This document shows, one piece after another, positions 3,923 through 10,627 of a stretch of DNA of 28,217 bases. The notes beneath the pieces are model-generated. The model was not told the origin of the DNA. It searched no databases and saw only the letters and a program-made list of their open reading frames with translations. How positions within the stretch are numbered: position 1 is the first letter of the stretch; each line of letters begins with the position of its first letter. Source of the DNA: a virus (taxonomy: Duplodnaviria > Heunggongvirae > Uroviricota > Caudoviricetes); the IMG/VR virus record IMGVR_UViG_2802429224_000009; one strand, 5' to 3'. Both the position numbers and the translations under genes were made by a program.

Positions 3923-4168
3923 ATGACCATTCTGGACTACATCGCCGCCAATCCGGGTTGTAGCGGTGGAGAAATCGCCGCAGCACTGAATACCTCAACC
4001 ACAGCCATTAATGCGGAGTTACGCCGACTCTGGCGCAGCGGTTCAGTCATAAGAAAAGAGCGCAAAACAGGCGGTCGCTTTTCTTACCAGATAAACCCGA
4101 TGCCGTTCGGGTGCGGCAATCCACTTACCAACATGTTTAACCAGCTACTGAAGGAAGCCAGAGCATGA
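3923..4168 (+). CDS. Winged-helix DNA-binding protein (MarR/PadR-like fold, 81 aa)
   Basis: ATG at 3923 with AGGAG RBS; MTILDYIAANPGCSGGEIAAALNTSTTAINAELRRLWRSGSVIRKERKTGGRFSYQI is a typical wHTH layout (recognition helix, then basic wing). Stop overlaps next ATG (ATGA at 4165-4168). Confidence 0.55.
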   Translation: MTILDYIAANPGCSGGEIAAALNTSTTAINAELRRLWRSGSVIRKERKTGGRFSYQINPMPFGCGNPLTNMFNQLLKEARA

Positions 4169-4461
4169 GCGCCATCAACCACCAGGAACTACGCGAACTG
4201 GCAACTGACTTGCAACGAATGGCAACGCATCAAAAATTACTGGCGTTTCGCGCAATGCTCTCGCCGTCTGCTGTGCTGGCCCTACTGGATGAACTGGAGC
4301 ACGCCGGAACCACAGCTCCCGCCATTCGCCTGACGCTCCGCCATGAGATCGAGGATTTTTGCGCAACGCTGGAGTCATTGGGCGAACCCCAGACACCGGA
4401 AGACATGCAGCGCGAGTTACTGCAGCGCATCAACAAGGTTTTTGATTTCTTTCTCAACTAA
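4165..4461 (+). CDS. Hypothetical helical protein (98 aa), translationally coupled to the wHTH gene
   Basis: ATG at 4165 overlapping the upstream stop; acidic, predicted helical; no family recognised. Confidence 0.5.
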   Translation: MSAINHQELRELATDLQRMATHQKLLAFRAMLSPSAVLALLDELEHAGTTAPAIRLTLRHEIEDFCATLESLGEPQTPEDMQRELLQRINKVFDFFLN

Positions 4462-4475
4462 GCGGGAACCACAAC

Positions 4476-4688
4476 ATGAACAAGAAGACATGGCTTCGCG
4501 CCTATGCATGGGCGCTGGTATGCGTCCTCGTTTCTCTCATTCTGTATGTGGGGCTACTCCCCAGAATGATTTCATCAGACAGCTCCTTCCTGGTATTGCT
4601 GGGCATTTTTGTCGCCTTGCTGTACCCGGCGGGCGTTGTCCGCTTTTTCAGTAACTACATCAAAGCAATTATGGAAACCAAACAATGA
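4476..4688 (+). CDS. Small inner-membrane protein (70 aa, two TM helices), partner of the SPFH lipoprotein
   Basis: Hydrophobic segments YAWALVCVLVSLILYVGLL and FLVLLGIFVALLYPAGVV; stop TGA overlaps the ATG of the SPFH gene (ATGA at 4685-4688). Confidence 0.5.
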   Translation: MNKKTWLRAYAWALVCVLVSLILYVGLLPRMISSDSSFLVLLGIFVALLYPAGVVRFFSNYIKAIMETKQ

Positions 4689-5509
4689 AAAAACTATTAC
4701 CACTCATCCCTCTCCTGATGACCACACTTCTGGTTGGCTGTGACCGCGTGGAGCCGGGCAATGTAGGCATCAAAGTCAACAAGCTGGGCGACGACAAAGG
4801 CGTCGGCGAAGTAGTTGGCGTTGGCCGCTACTGGACAGGCTGGAATACAGAGGTTTACATCTTCCCGACCTTCAAACAAATGAAGACTTACGATGAGCCG
4901 TTCAGCTTCCAGATGAGTGACGGCACAACCATCGGCTATCACATCGGCGTGGCTTACAAGGTTGATCCATCCAAAGTTACCACAGTGTTTCAGACCTACC
5001 GCAAAGGCGTGGATGACATTACTGACACTGACCTGCGCCAGAAGATCGCCGATGCACTCAACCGACTGGCCAGCAAAATGACCACCGATAAGTTTATCGA
5101 CGGTGGCAAGTCTGAACTGCTGGATTCAGCACTTAAAGACATTCAGTCAGAAATGACACCTATCGGCATTCAGGTAATGAGCCTCTCTTATGTCGGTAAA
5201 CCGGAATATCCGCCAACCGTTATCGACAGCATTAACGCCAAAGTCACGGCAAACCAGAAAACCCTGCAACGCGAGCAGGAAGTCAAGCAACGCGAAGCAG
5301 AAGCCAACATGCTGCGCGCAGAAGCTGCCGGACAGGCCGATGCCATTCGCACAAAAGCCCAGGCTGAAGCCGACGCCATTCGTTTACGCGGTGAAGCTCT
5401 GCGCCAGAATCCCGGCGTTATGGAGCTGGAAGCGATTAACAAATGGAACGGCACGCTACCGCAATACATGACCAGTAATACCGCTGTTCCGTTTGTTCCG
5501 GTGAAGTAA
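4685..5509 (+). CDS. SPFH/band-7 (prohibitin/stomatin-like) domain lipoprotein
   Basis: 274 aa. N-terminal lipoprotein signal peptide with lipobox LLVGC (MKKLLPLIPLLMTTLLVGC); central SPFH-like core; C-terminal Ala/Glu/Arg-rich coiled coil (REAEANMLRAEAAGQADAIRTKAQAEADAIRLRGEA) typical of the family. Confidence 0.8.
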   Translation: MKKLLPLIPLLMTTLLVGCDRVEPGNVGIKVNKLGDDKGVGEVVGVGRYWTGWNTEVYIFPTFKQMKTYDEPFSFQMSDGTTIGYHIGVAYKVDPSKVTTVFQTYRKGVDDITDTDLRQKIADALNRLASKMTTDKFIDGGKSELLDSALKDIQSEMTPIGIQVMSLSYVGKPEYPPTVIDSINAKVTANQKTLQREQEVKQREAEANMLRAEAAGQADAIRTKAQAEADAIRLRGEALRQNPGVMELEAINKWNGTLPQYMTSNTAVPFVPVK

Positions 5510-5515
5510 TTCAAC

Positions 5516-5539
5516 CCGGCCAGTGAAACCGCTGGCCGG
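5516..5539 (+). terminator. Stem-loop after the SPFH gene (terminator-like, no U-tract)
   Basis: Perfect 8-bp inverted repeat CCGGCCAG (5516-5523) / CTGGCCGG (5532-5539) with an 8-nt loop, 7 nt after the stop; followed by A-rich rather than T-rich sequence. Confidence 0.3.
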
Positions 5540-5576
5540 AAATATAACGAATAAACAAAAAGCCAGAGGACAGAAC

Positions 5577-5723
5577 ATGCACAAAGCCTTTGAACGATGG
5601 ATGCGCCAGCGTTACGGCAATCGCTATGACCTGACAAGGGATGTTGATGGCTACTACTGCCGCGAAATTGTGAAACGAATGTTTGAAGTGTGGTGCCACG
5701 CTCGCGGCCTGTACGCCGTGTAA
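5577..5723 (+). CDS. Small hypothetical protein (48 aa)
   Basis: ATG at 5577 (MHKAFERWMRQRYGNRYDLT...) with GAGGA about 8 nt upstream; short, so coding status uncertain. Confidence 0.3.
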   Translation: MHKAFERWMRQRYGNRYDLTRDVDGYYCREIVKRMFEVWCHARGLYAV

Positions 5724-5862
5724 TCCGTGTCACTGCCAGAAGGTTAACCCATGTATACACAAAAAAACCGCTTGCCATGCCGTAATCAGTCAGGTTACAT
5801 TTCCGCTGCACCTCATAAAACGGGTGCCGGGATTGCAACCCCCGCTGACAACTACAGCGCAC

Positions 5863-6061: not shown

Positions 6062-6292
6062 ATGGCAAACCGCAAACAACAGCGCGCATACGCTGCGCGT
6101 CGTCACATCCAGACTGAAATCAACCGCAGACTTTCCCGCGCATCACGCGTCGCGCAAATCATGCACATCAATATGCTGCATGAGCACAGCCACGCACTAT
6201 CAAACATTTATTCCGCCTCTGTTTTCAGCTATCTGGCGGATGATCTGCACGAGCTTCAACAGCTCATCCAGCAGCAAAACAAACTCCATTAA
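6062..6292 (+). CDS. Hypothetical basic protein (76 aa)
   Basis: ATG at 6062 with AGAGG RBS; arginine-rich N-terminus (MANRKQQRAYAARRHIQTEINRRLSR). Confidence 0.45.
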   Translation: MANRKQQRAYAARRHIQTEINRRLSRASRVAQIMHINMLHEHSHALSNIYSASVFSYLADDLHELQQLIQQQNKLH

Positions 6293-9667: not shown

Positions 9668-10627
9668 ATGAAAATTTGTATCGACGACGGCTCCACCAAC
9701 ATCAAGCTGGCATGGACTGAGAACGGCGAACGCCGCAACGCCATCAGCCCGAACAGCTTCAAGTCGGAATGGTCTGCGCCGTTCGGTGGCACGCAGCCCG
9801 CGAACTACATGCTTGATGGCGTGCGCTATGGTTTTGATCCGGTCAGCGATCGCTTTGTCCAGACGACCGACACGCAATACCAGTACAGCGATGTGAATGT
9901 CATTGCCATTCATCATGCGCTGGTCAAATCAGGCATCACGCCACAGGAGGTGGATGTGGTTGTCACCCTGCCACTGAGCGAGTATTTCGACACAAACGCA
10001 CAGCCGGACATGACCAACATCAACCGCAAAAAAGCGAACGTTATGCGCCCGGTGGAGTACCAGAACGGCGAGGCATTCACTATCCGTAACGTGCGGGTTA
10101 TGCCTGAATCCATTCCGGCTGGCTTTAAAGCACTGGCTGACATGAGTCCGTTTGAATCCCTGCTGATTGTGGATTTGGGCGGAACCACGCTGGATGTGGC
10201 AAAGGTTCAGGGGCAACTGGCAGGTATCAGCCAGGTGTTTTGCGATCCACACGTAGGCGTTTCCCTGATGGCCGATGCCGTACTGTCGGTGATGGCCACC
10301 AACGGTATGCGCACCAGTCACCACATCGCCAATACCATTATCGAACATCGCCACGATGAAGCCTGGCTGCGCCAGCACATCCACAATGACGCGCATTACG
10401 CCAGCCTGATGGCGGTTATTCGTGAAAAGGAAGAAACACTGAAACAACGCGTGATCCGCGCGCTGGCGGGTTTTTCGGGTTACGGGCGGGTGATGGTTGT
10501 CGGTGGAGGGGCGGAGATTGTGGCACCCGCTATCCGCGAAGCCTGCGGAGTTAATGCGACTTTCATCGCGGACGGGGTGCCACAGTTTGCTCTGGTTAAT
10601 GGGCTGTACGCAATGGACAAGGAGTAA
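9668..10627 (+). CDS. parM: Actin-like segregation ATPase, ParM/StbA family (type II partition)
   Basis: 319 aa, AAGGAA RBS. N-terminus MKICIDDGSTNIKLAW closely matches R1 ParM as recalled (MLVFIDDGSTNIKLQW); phosphate-2 motif IVDLGGTTLDV; C-terminal VMVVGGGAEI...LVNGLYA also ParM-like. Confidence 0.9.
   Translation: MKICIDDGSTNIKLAWTENGERRNAISPNSFKSEWSAPFGGTQPANYMLDGVRYGFDPVSDRFVQTTDTQYQYSDVNVIAIHHALVKSGITPQEVDVVVTLPLSEYFDTNAQPDMTNINRKKANVMRPVEYQNGEAFTIRNVRVMPESIPAGFKALADMSPFESLLIVDLGGTTLDVAKVQGQLAGISQVFCDPHVGVSLMADAVLSVMATNGMRTSHHIANTIIEHRHDEAWLRQHIHNDAHYASLMAVIREKEETLKQRVIRALAGFSGYGRVMVVGGGAEIVAPAIREACGVNATFIADGVPQFALVNGLYAMDKE

What the first reader, a model, noticed from the sequence alone, without database searches (positions are those of the whole stretch)
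4476..5539. SPFH/band-7 lipoprotein coupled to a small two-TM membrane protein inside the early accessory region
A 274-aa protein with a lipoprotein signal peptide (LLVGC lipobox), an SPFH-like core and an Ala/Glu/Arg coiled coil is translationally coupled (ATGA overlap at 4685-4688) to a 70-aa two-helix membrane protein, and the operon ends in a strong hairpin. SPFH proteins scaffold membrane microdomains and modulate membrane proteases (HflK/C-FtsH is the established example). A periplasm-facing SPFH lipoprotein with a dedicated inner-membrane partner, carried in a variable prophage region, is a plausible superinfection-exclusion or abortive-infection module. I am not aware of a characterised defence system of this composition.
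Basis: partly seen in the sequence, partly recalled or inferred. Interest (0 to 1): 0.75.

Follow-up and report, generated by a model that had tools for sequence, protein, structure and literature searches.

The report
Phage SPFH lipoprotein with hairpin partner
The two overlapping genes are real and encode a small two-helix membrane protein and a lipid-anchored SPFH "cage" protein; the pair is not a rare prophage defence oddity but a widespread, still uncharacterised two-gene membrane module carried by hundreds of temperate and virulent phages (including coliphage N4-type phages) and by many bacterial chromosomes.

Summary
Window 4476-4688 encodes a 70-aa two-TM hairpin protein whose stop overlaps (ATGA) the start of a 274-aa lipoprotein at 4685-5509 (lipobox LVGC, Asp at +2; Pfam Band_7 E=1e-30). 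The AlphaFold model (pLDDT 88) resembles the cage-forming SPFH proteins HflK/C, prohibitin, erlin and stomatin. The pair is presence/absence cargo in the cox-to-gpA early operon of a P88-like (P2-type) prophage.

It is not rare. The SPFH gene occurs in 406 phage records, at least 493 viral contigs and about 10% of complete E. coli genomes. The carriers include P1-like, Stx/phiP27-like, N4-like (gp19/gp20) and other virulent phages. It is also a stable chromosomal gene in Dyella, Leptospira, Bacteroidota and others.

The hairpin gene, with a conserved turn motif P-x-L-I-S-A, travels with the SPFH gene in 78 of 80 viral contigs. In about 1 in 7 distant relatives the two are fused into one protein that keeps an internal lipobox (hhalign 98.5%, E=3e-15).

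I found no support for a defence role. There is no PADLOC match, no own promoter and no defence-island context, and the pair is present in virulent phages. The partner is not NfeD, and the SPFH protein is not an HflK/C orthologue. Function is still unknown. The best guess is a periplasm-facing inner-membrane cage made early in lytic growth.

The parts
4476..4688 (+). Gene for a 70-aa two-TM hairpin membrane protein (N-in/C-in). Its periplasmic turn L-L-P-R-M-I-S-S-D-S-S carries the family motif P-x-[LM]-[IV]-S-[AS].
   Evidence: ORF; hydropathy and charge distribution; PHROG 1130 E=7e-20; no Pfam family; dN/dS 0.14-0.27; motif conserved in phages and bacteria; homologous to the N-terminal part of fused proteins, hhalign 98.5%, E=3e-15.
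4685..4688 (+). ATGA start/stop overlap between the two genes. It implies translational coupling (inferred, not tested).
   Evidence: Sequence. No strong Shine-Dalgarno sequence precedes the second ATG. Overlaps of 4-20 nt recur in 9 of the 13 phage pairs examined.
4685..5509 (+). Gene for a 274-aa SPFH/Band-7 lipoprotein.
   Evidence: Pfam Band_7 E=1.1e-30; PHROG 200 'lipoprotein' E=2.8e-111; AlphaFold pLDDT 88.2; Foldseek hits to HflC/HflK, prohibitin, erlin, stomatin, flotillin and QmcA at E 1e-13 to 1e-7; dN/dS 0.01-0.09.
4685..4744 (+). Lipoprotein signal peptide, lipobox L-V-G-C (Cys19 codon at 4739-4741) and Asp at +2.
   Evidence: Regex and hydropathy. Cys is at least 90% conserved in a 50-sequence family alignment. 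The +2 residue is Asp in 101 and Glu in 5 of the 106 close homologs in which a lipobox was detected. Asp+2 as an inner-membrane retention signal in E. coli is established knowledge, not tested here.
4745..5206 (+). SPFH alpha/beta core (residues about 21-174).
   Evidence: Pfam match over residues 21-207. The model has strands 18-93, helices 95-157 and a strand at 162-174, with pLDDT above 90.
5213..5407 (+). Single 65-residue Ala/Glu/Arg-rich helix (residues 177-241), equivalent to the wall helix of SPFH cages.
   Evidence: DSSP on the model; composition; aligned with the coiled-coil parts of HflK and prohibitin-2.
5441..5461 (+). Conserved C-terminal motif K-W-N-G-x-L-P (residues 253-259). 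This is a family signature of unknown role. It lies just before the low-confidence tail.
   Evidence: W254 and G256 are invariant and P259 is at least 90% conserved in the 50-sequence alignment. K253, W254, G256 and P259 are invariant in the 11-sequence alignment. The motif served as a search pattern that retrieved at least 493 viral relatives.
5516..5539 (+). 10-bp G+C-rich stem-loop that marks the right end of the cassette shared with P88-type prophages. It is not a canonical intrinsic terminator.
   Evidence: Fold dG -22.5, z -5.3. No T-run follows it and the terminator scan did not list it. Homology to P88, E. coli 2015C-3163 and a Salmonella prophage ends at 5540.
4483..5749 (.). 1,267-bp segment present in the window but absent from backbone-matched prophages. 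It comprises the pair, the stem-loop and a further small mosaic piece.
   Evidence: Alignments to E. coli C9 and O157:H7 prophages stop at 4482 and resume at 5750. Gene order is MarR - Ead-like - [pair present or absent] - derepression protein - gpA.

Best explanation
The pair is one instance of a conserved, self-contained two-gene membrane module: a 2-TM hairpin protein plus a lipid-anchored SPFH protein. In this P88-like (P2-type) prophage it is mobile accessory cargo inserted in the early lytic operon. The steps below are marked as shown or inferred. (1) Shown: the two genes overlap and are always adjacent, and in some lineages they are one fused gene, so the two proteins act together. (2) Inferred from sequence rules: the SPFH protein is exported, lipidated at Cys19 and, because of Asp+2, retained on the periplasmic face of the inner membrane. 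The hairpin sits in the same membrane with only its conserved turn exposed to the periplasm, where it can contact the SPFH base. (3) Inferred from fold similarity: like HflK/C, prohibitin, erlin, stomatin and QmcA, the SPFH subunits assemble through the long helix into a closed ring or cage that fences off a patch of membrane. The orientation is that of HflK/C (periplasmic), but with a lipid anchor in place of a TM anchor and a hairpin subunit in place of NfeD or a paralogous SPFH partner. (4) Inferred from gene position: it is made together with early lytic genes and not from the repressed prophage. It serves the phage during infection by organising or protecting the inner membrane, and the exact target is unknown. 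Blocking DNA entry by secondary phages and keeping the membrane energised are the two most plausible outcomes.
For: Identity and architecture. Linkage: the hairpin gene lies upstream in 78 of 80 viral contigs, in 10 of 13 diverse phages including N4-like gp19/gp20, KpCHEMY26 gp28/gp29 and Vibrio and Burkholderia phages, and in most of 80 bacterial loci from several phyla. Fusions: 24 sequences have the lipobox Cys beyond residue 50, about 20 of them full-length hairpin-linker-signal peptide-lipobox-SPFH fusions among the 150 best representative clusters; hhalign of the split proteins against the fused N-termini gives 98.5%, E=3e-15. Self-contained unit: there is no recurrent third gene near 25 diverse bacterial loci. 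Cargo status. Early-operon position: integrase and repressor are on the - strand, Cox to gpA are all on the + strand, and no promoter-like site lies upstream of the pair. In phiP27 and Fraca the pair lies upstream of xis and int on the same strand, between the regulatory genes and the recombination genes. In P1-like RCS47 it lies downstream of an exact C1 operator pair in the tRNA-ban gene string. In N4-like and other virulent phages it sits among RNA polymerase, nucleotide-metabolism and replication genes. Cage-forming relatives and their orientations are described in PMC13086221.
Against: No experiment was found on any member (5 literature searches). A 2026 paper states that the reason for SPFH genes in phages is unclear. 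Oligomerisation, localisation and the hairpin-SPFH contact are all inferred. The +2 residue is not Asp in many distant relatives (Ser/Thr in 56 of 119, Tyr in N4-like), so inner-membrane retention may not be universal. Three phage lineages (LUZ24-like, FelixO1-like, phiCbK-like) have a different small upstream gene. The promoter scan is a crude consensus search and cannot exclude a weak internal promoter active in lysogens.
Confidence: 0.55

Rival explanations
1. Superinfection exclusion or abortive infection. The cage and hairpin block DNA entry of incoming phages at the inner membrane, or kill or arrest the infected cell. They would do this either from the prophage or during the carrier phage's own lytic growth, as T4 Imm/Sp and T5 Llp do.
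For: The pair is at the envelope, it is small, and it is presence/absence cargo. PHROG 1130 is filed under 'moron, auxiliary metabolic gene and host takeover'. A Vi01-like phage lists its SPFH gene next to a gene annotated as superinfection exclusion. Early expression fits exclusion systems of virulent phages (my own knowledge of T4 and T5). N4, which carries gp19/gp20 homologs, has an unsolved response to superinfection.
Against: Neither protein matches PADLOC and neither matches a Sie-annotated PHROG. There is no own promoter, and the pair lies inside a repressed operon, so expression in lysogens is doubtful. The same module is a stable chromosomal gene in about 20 syntenic Dyella species and in other phyla, with housekeeping neighbours and no defence islands.
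Confidence: 0.2
2. Mimic or competitor of HflK/C. The phage SPFH cage engages the host protease FtsH from the periplasmic side and changes the stability of FtsH substrates (lysis-lysogeny regulators, LpxC, membrane proteins) in favour of the phage.
For: HflC and HflK are the top structural matches (E about 2e-13) and HflK is the top sequence match in the PDB. The predicted periplasmic orientation is the same as that of HflK/C. The position in the early-left operon of lambdoid phages is where lambda carries its FtsH inhibitor cIII (my own knowledge). A satellite-phage paper made the same suggestion for an HflK/C-family gene.
Against: Identity is only 16-17%, and scores are far below the HflK/HflC equivalog cut-offs (26 against 134 bits). 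There is a single SPFH gene and not a K/C pair, and a lipid anchor in place of the TM anchor. The gene occurs in virulent phages that make no lysogeny decision. No ftsH or other protease recurs next to bacterial copies. Prohibitin, erlin and stomatin match about as well as HflK/C.
Confidence: 0.12
3. Gated pore. The hairpin is a small membrane-permeabilising protein and the SPFH cage sequesters or times it. The pair would contribute to lysis timing or lysis inhibition, or act as a toxin-antidote type cassette that helps the cargo to persist.
For: The 2-TM size class is that of holins and small membrane toxins (my own knowledge). The strict 1:1 genetic coupling and the fusions fit a regulator-effector pair. 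Stomatin-type SPFH proteins regulate channels (abstracts).
Against: The pair lies in early regions and not in lysis cassettes, in every phage examined. It is a stable chromosomal gene in many bacteria. The most conserved part of the hairpin is the periplasmic turn and not the TM faces.
Confidence: 0.08

Closest known systems
HflK/HflC-FtsH complex of E. coli (PDB 7vhp, 7vhq, 7wi3, 9cz2)
   Same: Both have the SPFH core followed by a long wall helix. HflK/C gives the best fold and sequence matches. The bulk of the protein is predicted to lie on the periplasmic side of the inner membrane.
   Different: Identity is 16-17% and scores are far below the equivalog cut-offs. There is one SPFH gene and not a K/C heterodimer. 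The anchor is a lipobox and not an N-terminal TM helix. The partner is a 2-TM hairpin. No link to FtsH was found.
SPFH-NfeD operons (QmcA-YbbJ 8z5g, YqiK-YqiJ, FloA-NfeD, PH1511-PH1510)
   Same: An SPFH gene is co-transcribed with an adjacent gene for a small membrane protein, which is thought to support oligomerisation. QmcA is a structural match.
   Different: The 70-aa partner has no NfeD/OB-fold domain and matches no Pfam family. QmcA-YbbJ faces the cytoplasm, whereas this protein is exported and lipidated.
Phage families PHROG 200 ('lipoprotein') and PHROG 1130 ('membrane protein'), including the N4-type gp19/gp20, KpCHEMY26 gp28/gp29, P88 gp11/gp12 and phiP27 L05
   Same: These are direct homologs with the same gene order and overlap. 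The window pair is a member.
   Different: No difference in kind. These families are catalogued but uncharacterised, and the link between the two had not been described in any text I could search.
Early-expressed exclusion proteins of virulent phages (T4 Imm and Sp, T5 Llp)
   Same: They are small envelope proteins made early. One is polytopic in the inner membrane and one is anchored and faces the periplasm. This is a functional analogy from my own knowledge.
   Different: No sequence or fold relationship was found. Exclusion activity has not been tested for this pair.

Membership tests
SPFH / Band-7 superfamily | Match to Pfam PF01145 above the gathering score | tested here: met
   E=1.1e-30, 107.5 bits against a cut-off of 23.6, covering residues 21-207 and the whole profile.
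SPFH / Band-7 superfamily | alpha/beta SPFH core followed by a long helix, as in solved cage-forming members | tested here: met
   Model pLDDT 88.2 with helix 177-241. Foldseek probability 1.00 to HflC/K, prohibitin, erlin, stomatin, flotillin, QmcA and major vault protein.
SPFH / Band-7 superfamily | Assembly into a ring or cage on a membrane | not testable with these tools
   Only monomer models were available. This needs multimer modelling, SEC-MALS or cryo-EM.
Phage pair PHROG 1130 + PHROG 200 (N4 gp19/gp20 type) | Both proteins match the two PHROG profiles | tested here: met
   PHROG 200 E=2.8e-111 and PHROG 1130 E=7e-20.
Phage pair PHROG 1130 + PHROG 200 (N4 gp19/gp20 type) | Hairpin gene directly upstream of and overlapping the SPFH lipoprotein gene, with the turn motif P-x-[LM]-[IV]-S-[AS] | tested here: met
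   ATGA overlap and the sequence LLPRMISS in the window. The same arrangement occurs in 78 of 80 viral contigs and 10 of 13 diverse phages.
HflK / HflC (FtsH modulators) | Score above the NCBIfam equivalog cut-offs TIGR01933 and TIGR01932 | tested here: not met
   22.6 and 26.4 bits against cut-offs of 159.4 and 134.4.
HflK / HflC (FtsH modulators) | Two paralogous SPFH subunits, each with an N-terminal TM anchor | tested here: not met
   There is a single SPFH gene, and its N-terminus is a lipoprotein signal peptide.
HflK / HflC (FtsH modulators) | Physical association with FtsH | not testable with these tools
   No ftsH gene is near the bacterial copies, but this is not decisive.
SPFH-NfeD operon | Partner protein carries the NfeD (OB-fold) domain | tested here: not met
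   The 70-aa protein has no Pfam hit at E<=0.1, and the fused N-termini have none either. The protein is too short for an OB-fold after two TM helices.
SPFH-NfeD operon | Adjacent, co-oriented gene for a membrane protein co-transcribed with the SPFH gene | tested here: met
   4-nt overlap on the same strand.
Known anti-phage defence systems (PADLOC-DB v2) | Match of either protein to a defence-system model | tested here: not met
   No family matched either protein at E<=0.1.
Known anti-phage defence systems (PADLOC-DB v2) | Location in defence islands in bacterial genomes | tested here: not met
   The pooled neighbours of 25 loci are housekeeping genes. Their PADLOC hits are generic ABC ATPase, cysteine desulfurase and UvrD paralogs. 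The Dyella locus is flanked by peptidases, hemerythrins and ribonucleotide reductase.
Known anti-phage defence systems (PADLOC-DB v2) | Protection against phage when expressed | not testable with these tools
   Needs plating assays.
Moron (independent transcription unit added to a phage genome) | Presence/absence between otherwise collinear phages | tested here: met
   A 1,267-bp indel at the same site. The backbone region matches in 1774 E. coli genomes, the SPFH gene in 535 and the full pair in 145.
Moron (independent transcription unit added to a phage genome) | Own promoter and own terminator | tested here: inconclusive
   No sigma-70-like site lies upstream. The downstream stem-loop lacks a T-run. 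These scans are consensus-based only.

The most novel reading that the evidence does not exclude
The hairpin plus SPFH-lipoprotein pair may be a previously unrecognised, cross-phylum two-component membrane-cage system. In this reading, single-gene versions are made as precursors with an internal lipoprotein signal peptide and are cut by signal peptidase II into the same two subunits. Phages as different as N4, P1-like, P2-like and Stx phages would deploy the system early in infection to exclude secondary phage DNA, to shield the inner membrane from abortive-infection effectors, or to sense superinfection (a candidate for the unsolved N4 lysis-inhibition signal).
Probability: 0.2. Interest if true: 0.8.

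Novelty: new variant of a known kind. Interest (0 to 1): 0.5.

Why it matters
SPFH cages (HflK/C, prohibitin, stomatin, flotillin, erlin) are an active topic in membrane biology, yet most bacterial members have no known function. This variant is lipid-anchored and periplasm-facing, has a conserved non-NfeD hairpin subunit, and exists in both split and fused gene forms. It is carried by hundreds of phages, including model and medically relevant ones (N4-type, P1-like phage-plasmids, Stx2 phages), and by about 10% of complete E. coli genomes. Because phages of very different lifestyles keep it under strong purifying selection, it probably does something general and important at the inner membrane during infection. 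The genetics to find out is simple: delete gp19/gp20 in N4, or the pair in P88 or P1-like phages. If the fused precursors are indeed split by signal peptidase II, that would be an unusual route of membrane-protein biogenesis. The practical by-products are unannotated partner genes in RefSeq records and frequent 'serine protease' mis-annotations.

Tried and rejected
(1) NfeD identity of the small protein was rejected. It has no Pfam hit and is too short for an OB-fold.

(2) HflK/C orthology was rejected, because the scores are far below the equivalog cut-offs.

(3) A known defence system was rejected on current databases.

(4) The hairpin as an intrinsic terminator is not supported. It has no T-run and was not listed by the scan.

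(5) A search for a recurrent third component or protease near bacterial copies found none. The divergent BlaR1-type M56 peptidase is conserved within Dyella only.

(6) A spanin or lysis-cassette role was considered and rejected. The pair is in early regions in every phage examined, and the large protein has an SPFH fold.

(7) The first genome scan, with a 50-sequence alignment, failed because no stretch was conserved enough. It was repeated with an 11-sequence alignment.

It was replaced by a model of the fused relative P0001.

(9) The word-indexed homolog search for the 70-aa protein found only 14 close clusters. The motif-based scan of fetched loci reached much further.

(10) Five literature searches found no functional study of this family. 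The PA14 SPFH survey does not mention lipoprotein-type members, and the N4 lysis preprint does not mention gp19/gp20.

(11) My first pairwise BLAST merged several subjects and was redone with separate subjects.
Full report
OBSERVATION

The window carries two overlapping + strand ORFs exactly as described: 4476-4688 (70 aa) and 4685-5509 (274 aa), sharing ATGA at 4685-4688.

The small protein has two hydrophobic stretches separated by the short loop L-L-P-R-M-I-S-S-D-S-S. Its termini are K/R-rich, which by the positive-inside rule gives an N-in/C-in hairpin with only the loop in the periplasm.

The large protein starts with a hydrophobic signal segment and the lipobox L-V-G-C19, followed by Asp. 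It matches Pfam Band_7 at E=1.1e-30. Its AlphaFold model (pLDDT 88.2) has a beta-rich SPFH core, one 65-residue Ala/Glu/Arg-rich helix (177-241), a short helix and a low-confidence tail.

The stem-loop at 5516-5539 is strong (dG -22.5 kcal/mol, z=-5.3), but no T-run follows it and the terminator scan did not list it.

Both ORFs are under purifying selection among close homologs. dN/dS is 0.14-0.27 for the small gene and 0.01-0.09 for the SPFH gene.

CONTEXT IN THE WINDOW

The window is a P2-type prophage of the P88 kind (Xuanwuvirus). Integrase and an HTH repressor lie on the - strand. Cox, DUF4761, DUF4754, a winged-helix/MarR protein, an Ead-like protein, the pair, a derepression protein and the gpA replication protein all lie on the + strand. 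ParM, portal and terminase follow.

The pair begins 14 nt after the preceding gene, and no sigma-70-like site is found upstream. In P2-type phages the Cox-to-A string is the early lytic operon, which the immunity repressor silences in lysogens; this is established knowledge of P2 and was not tested here. gpA lies downstream and must be transcribed through the stem-loop. The stem-loop is therefore unlikely to be an efficient terminator, and the pair is not an operon of its own.

CARGO STATUS

Backbone-matched E. coli prophages either have the pair (strain 2015C-3163, phage P88, a Salmonella prophage) or lack it (strain C9, O157:H7 strain 7.1_Anguil). The gene order is MarR - Ead-like - [pair present or absent] - derepression protein - gpA.

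Alignments to the prophages that lack the pair stop at 4482 and resume at 5750, which defines a 1,267-bp indel. The unit shared with P88-type carriers ends at 5540, just after the stem-loop.

Among 5,426 complete E. coli genomes, the backbone region matches in 1,774, the SPFH gene in 535 (418 chromosomal places and 199 on plasmids, most of about 86-102 kb, the size of P1-like phage-plasmids) and the full pair at the nucleotide level in 145.

THE PAIR IS A WIDESPREAD, CONSERVED MODULE

The SPFH protein falls in PHROG 200 (E=3e-111) and the small protein in PHROG 1130 (E=7e-20).

The same SPFH gene, at 87-91% nucleotide identity, sits in P1-like phages (RCS47 and P1 variants) and in Stx2/phiP27-type phages. 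Phage Fraca (Hendrixvirinae) carries a copy at 82% identity over the best-matching part. In each of them a 62-78 aa hairpin ORF overlaps the SPFH start. This ORF is not annotated in the RefSeq records of phiP27 and RCS47.

A protein-level search finds the SPFH lipoprotein in 406 of 50,697 phage records. Many of these are strictly virulent lineages: N4-like Schitoviridae, Vequintavirinae, LUZ24-like podophages, FelixO1-like Erwinia phages, phiCbK-like phages, jumbo phages, crAss-like phages and Lak megaphages.

In the N4-like phage Jura the two genes are labelled as homologs of N4 gp19 and gp20. In KpCHEMY26 the annotators had already noted '2 TMDs N in C in' for the upstream gene.

Of 13 diverse phages examined, 10 have a hairpin protein with the turn motif P-x-[LM]-[IVM]-S-[AS] directly upstream; in one of them, KE22, it lies two genes upstream. 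Three lineages have a different small gene there. In 80 close viral contigs the hairpin ORF is present in 78.

GENE FUSIONS

A deep search gave 2,880 representative clusters at E<=1e-3, of which 214 are at E<=1e-30. Twenty-four sequences have the lipobox Cys beyond residue 50, and about 20 of these are full-length fusions among the best 150 clusters. They are 320-390 aa long, with an N-terminal extension that is a 2-TM hairpin carrying the same turn motif. After the hairpin come a positively charged linker, a hydrophobic segment, a lipobox Cys and the SPFH core.

Profile-profile comparison of the split small proteins with these N-terminal regions gives 98.5% probability, E=3e-15, over 59 columns with the P...S motif in register. 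Some caution is due because TM segments inflate such scores.

A model of a fused E. coli variant, built with the natural fusions as its alignment, predicts helix 5-38, a four-residue turn, helix 43-68 and a third helix 74-89, followed by the SPFH core. The hairpin has pLDDT about 85.

Fusions of this kind are classical evidence that two proteins work as one unit. The lipobox and a full signal-peptide-like segment are retained inside the fusions. I therefore infer, without a test, that such precursors are lipidated and cut by signal peptidase II, releasing the same two products as the split genes.

In several loci the two ORFs are in the same frame and separated by a single stop codon. Switching between split and fused forms is therefore easy.

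NOT ONLY A PHAGE GENE

A scan of one genome per species found 119 relatives. About 30 Dyella/Rhodanobacteraceae genomes carry the module at about 45% identity. Both flanks are syntenic across about 20 species at 75-90% nucleotide identity.

The neighbours in Dyella are a DPP-IV-type peptidase, a divergent BlaR1-type M56 membrane peptidase, two hemerythrins and ribonucleotide reductase, and none are phage genes.

Hairpin ORFs with the motif were also detected upstream of the SPFH gene in Leptospira, Saprospirales, Flavobacterium, Sutterella, Cupriavidus, Xenorhabdus, Morganella and a Dependentiae MAG.

The pooled neighbours of 25 diverse loci are unrelated housekeeping genes. There is no recurrent third partner, no recurrent protease and almost no phage signature, and their PADLOC hits are only generic paralogs. 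The module is therefore a self-contained two-gene unit of Gram-negative bacteria that phages have captured repeatedly. In E. coli, every copy I inspected lies in a prophage or on a P1-size plasmid.

WHAT IT RESEMBLES

Foldseek places the model, at probability 1.00, with HflC/HflK (E about 2e-13), prohibitin, erlin, stomatin, flotillin, QmcA-YbbJ and the vault shoulder domain. Sequence identity is about 14-18%. By sequence the best solved relative is HflK, at only E=5e-4. All of these proteins form closed rings or cages on membranes. HflK/C protrudes into the periplasm and QmcA-YbbJ into the cytoplasm (PMC13086221).

The window protein fails the HflK/HflC equivalog cut-offs by a wide margin. 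It is a single gene and not a K/C pair, and it is lipid-anchored and not TM-anchored. Its partner has no NfeD/OB-fold domain and no Pfam family.

It therefore works like an SPFH scaffold, but it is not an HflK/C orthologue and not an SPFH-NfeD operon. It is a distinct variant: a lipoprotein SPFH with a hairpin subunit.

LOCALISATION

The residue after the lipobox Cys is Asp in 101 and Glu in 5 of the 106 close enterobacterial homologs in which a lipobox was detected. Asp at +2 is the classical signal for retention in the inner membrane in E. coli (established knowledge). This places the SPFH protein on the periplasmic face of the inner membrane, next to the only exposed and best-conserved part of the hairpin.

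In distant relatives the +2 residue varies (Ser, Thr, Asp, Gly and others; Tyr in N4-like phages), and sorting rules differ between taxa. This step is therefore inferred for the window protein and left open for the family.

FUNCTION

No experiment on any member was found in five literature searches. A 2026 paper on a Schitoviridae (N4-like) phage states that the reason for an SPFH lipoprotein in a phage genome 'remains unclear'. Older genome papers only list the domain.

Gene position gives a consistent hint:
- In the P2-type phage the pair is in the early operon.
- In phiP27 and Fraca it lies between the regulatory genes and xis/int, on the same strand.
- In P1-like RCS47 it lies in the tRNA-ban gene string downstream of an exact C1 operator pair, with no promoter-like site of its own.
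- In virulent phages it sits among RNA polymerase, nucleotide-metabolism and replication genes.

My best-supported reading is therefore a periplasm-facing inner-membrane cage, with the hairpin as its integral subunit, made early in lytic growth to organise or protect the membrane.

Three rivals remain. Exclusion of secondary phages during lytic growth is the most attractive specific outcome (0.2). An HflK/C-like action on FtsH (0.12) and a gated-pore role (0.08) are the other two.

VERDICT

The pair is a member of catalogued but uncharacterised phage families and represents a new variant within the SPFH superfamily.

This analysis adds the following:
- the obligatory hairpin partner and its cross-phylum motif;
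- the split and fused gene forms with an internal lipobox;
- the breadth of carriers, from N4-type phages to Stx phages and bacterial chromosomes;
- the negative results for NfeD, HflK/C and known defence systems.

Interest is moderate (0.5). It is a good, cheap experimental target, not a demonstrated new defence system.

Noticed in passing
L002 2753-2941 (phiP27, NC_003356) and L003 2730-2966 (RCS47, NC_042128): The hairpin ORF upstream of the SPFH lipoprotein gene is not annotated in these RefSeq phage records, although it is conserved and under purifying selection.
   Followed up: yes
phage records: The SPFH lipoprotein is frequently mis-named 'serine protease', 'transposase fusion protein', 'putative transposase' or 'transferase' in GenBank phage records.
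   Followed up: partly
L003 2940-2966 and protein P0001: The RCS47-type overlap contains an A7 run. An E. coli protein of 347 aa (P0001) is an in-frame fusion of hairpin and SPFH across it, consistent with a 1-nt indel. That indel could be a sequencing error, a real mutation or slippage.
   Followed up: partly
window 5541-5757 (48-aa ORF at 5577-5723): This is a separate mosaic piece (PHROG 3871, E=1e-31). It is absent from P88 and E. coli 2015C-3163 but present in phiP27 (L002 4455-4577) and in a Shigella prophage (L017 8554-8679). Its function is unknown.
   Followed up: partly
window 4730-4741: Nucleotide homology to the P1-like, Stx/phiP27 and Fraca copies starts just before the lipobox Cys codon. 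The mature SPFH protein is 95-98% identical between the P2-type, P1-like and Stx/phiP27-type carriers, while the signal peptide and hairpin gene have diverged into two sequence types.
   Followed up: partly
window 9668-10627: A ParM actin-like plasmid-segregation ATPase (Pfam E=3e-82) lies directly after the gpA replication gene, as in phage P88. This is unusual cargo for an integrating P2-type phage.
   Followed up: no
L052 2902-5055 (-) and syntenic Dyella loci: A BlaR1-type M56 membrane peptidase gene lies divergently next to the hairpin-SPFH module and is conserved with it across about 20 Dyella species. It may be coincidence or a lineage-specific functional link between the SPFH cage and a membrane protease.
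   Followed up: partly
L003 965-992: An exact match to the P1 C1 operator consensus, together with an inverted second copy with two mismatches, lies upstream of the tRNA - pair - tRNA - ban gene string in RCS47. In RCS47 the pair occupies the position where, from my own knowledge of P1, the reference phage carries tciA-C; this was not checked here.
   Followed up: partly
PhiSH19 genome table (PMC3220722): In this Vi01-like Salmonella phage, the 263-aa SPFH-domain gene is listed next to a gene annotated as a superinfection exclusion protein.
   Followed up: no
window 6062-6292 and 4165-4461: The genes flanking the cassette are a 'derepression protein' family member (Pfam PF25738, E=5e-8) and an Ead/Ea22-like protein (PHROG 4144). 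Both stay in place in prophages that lack the pair, so they are not part of the module.
   Followed up: yes
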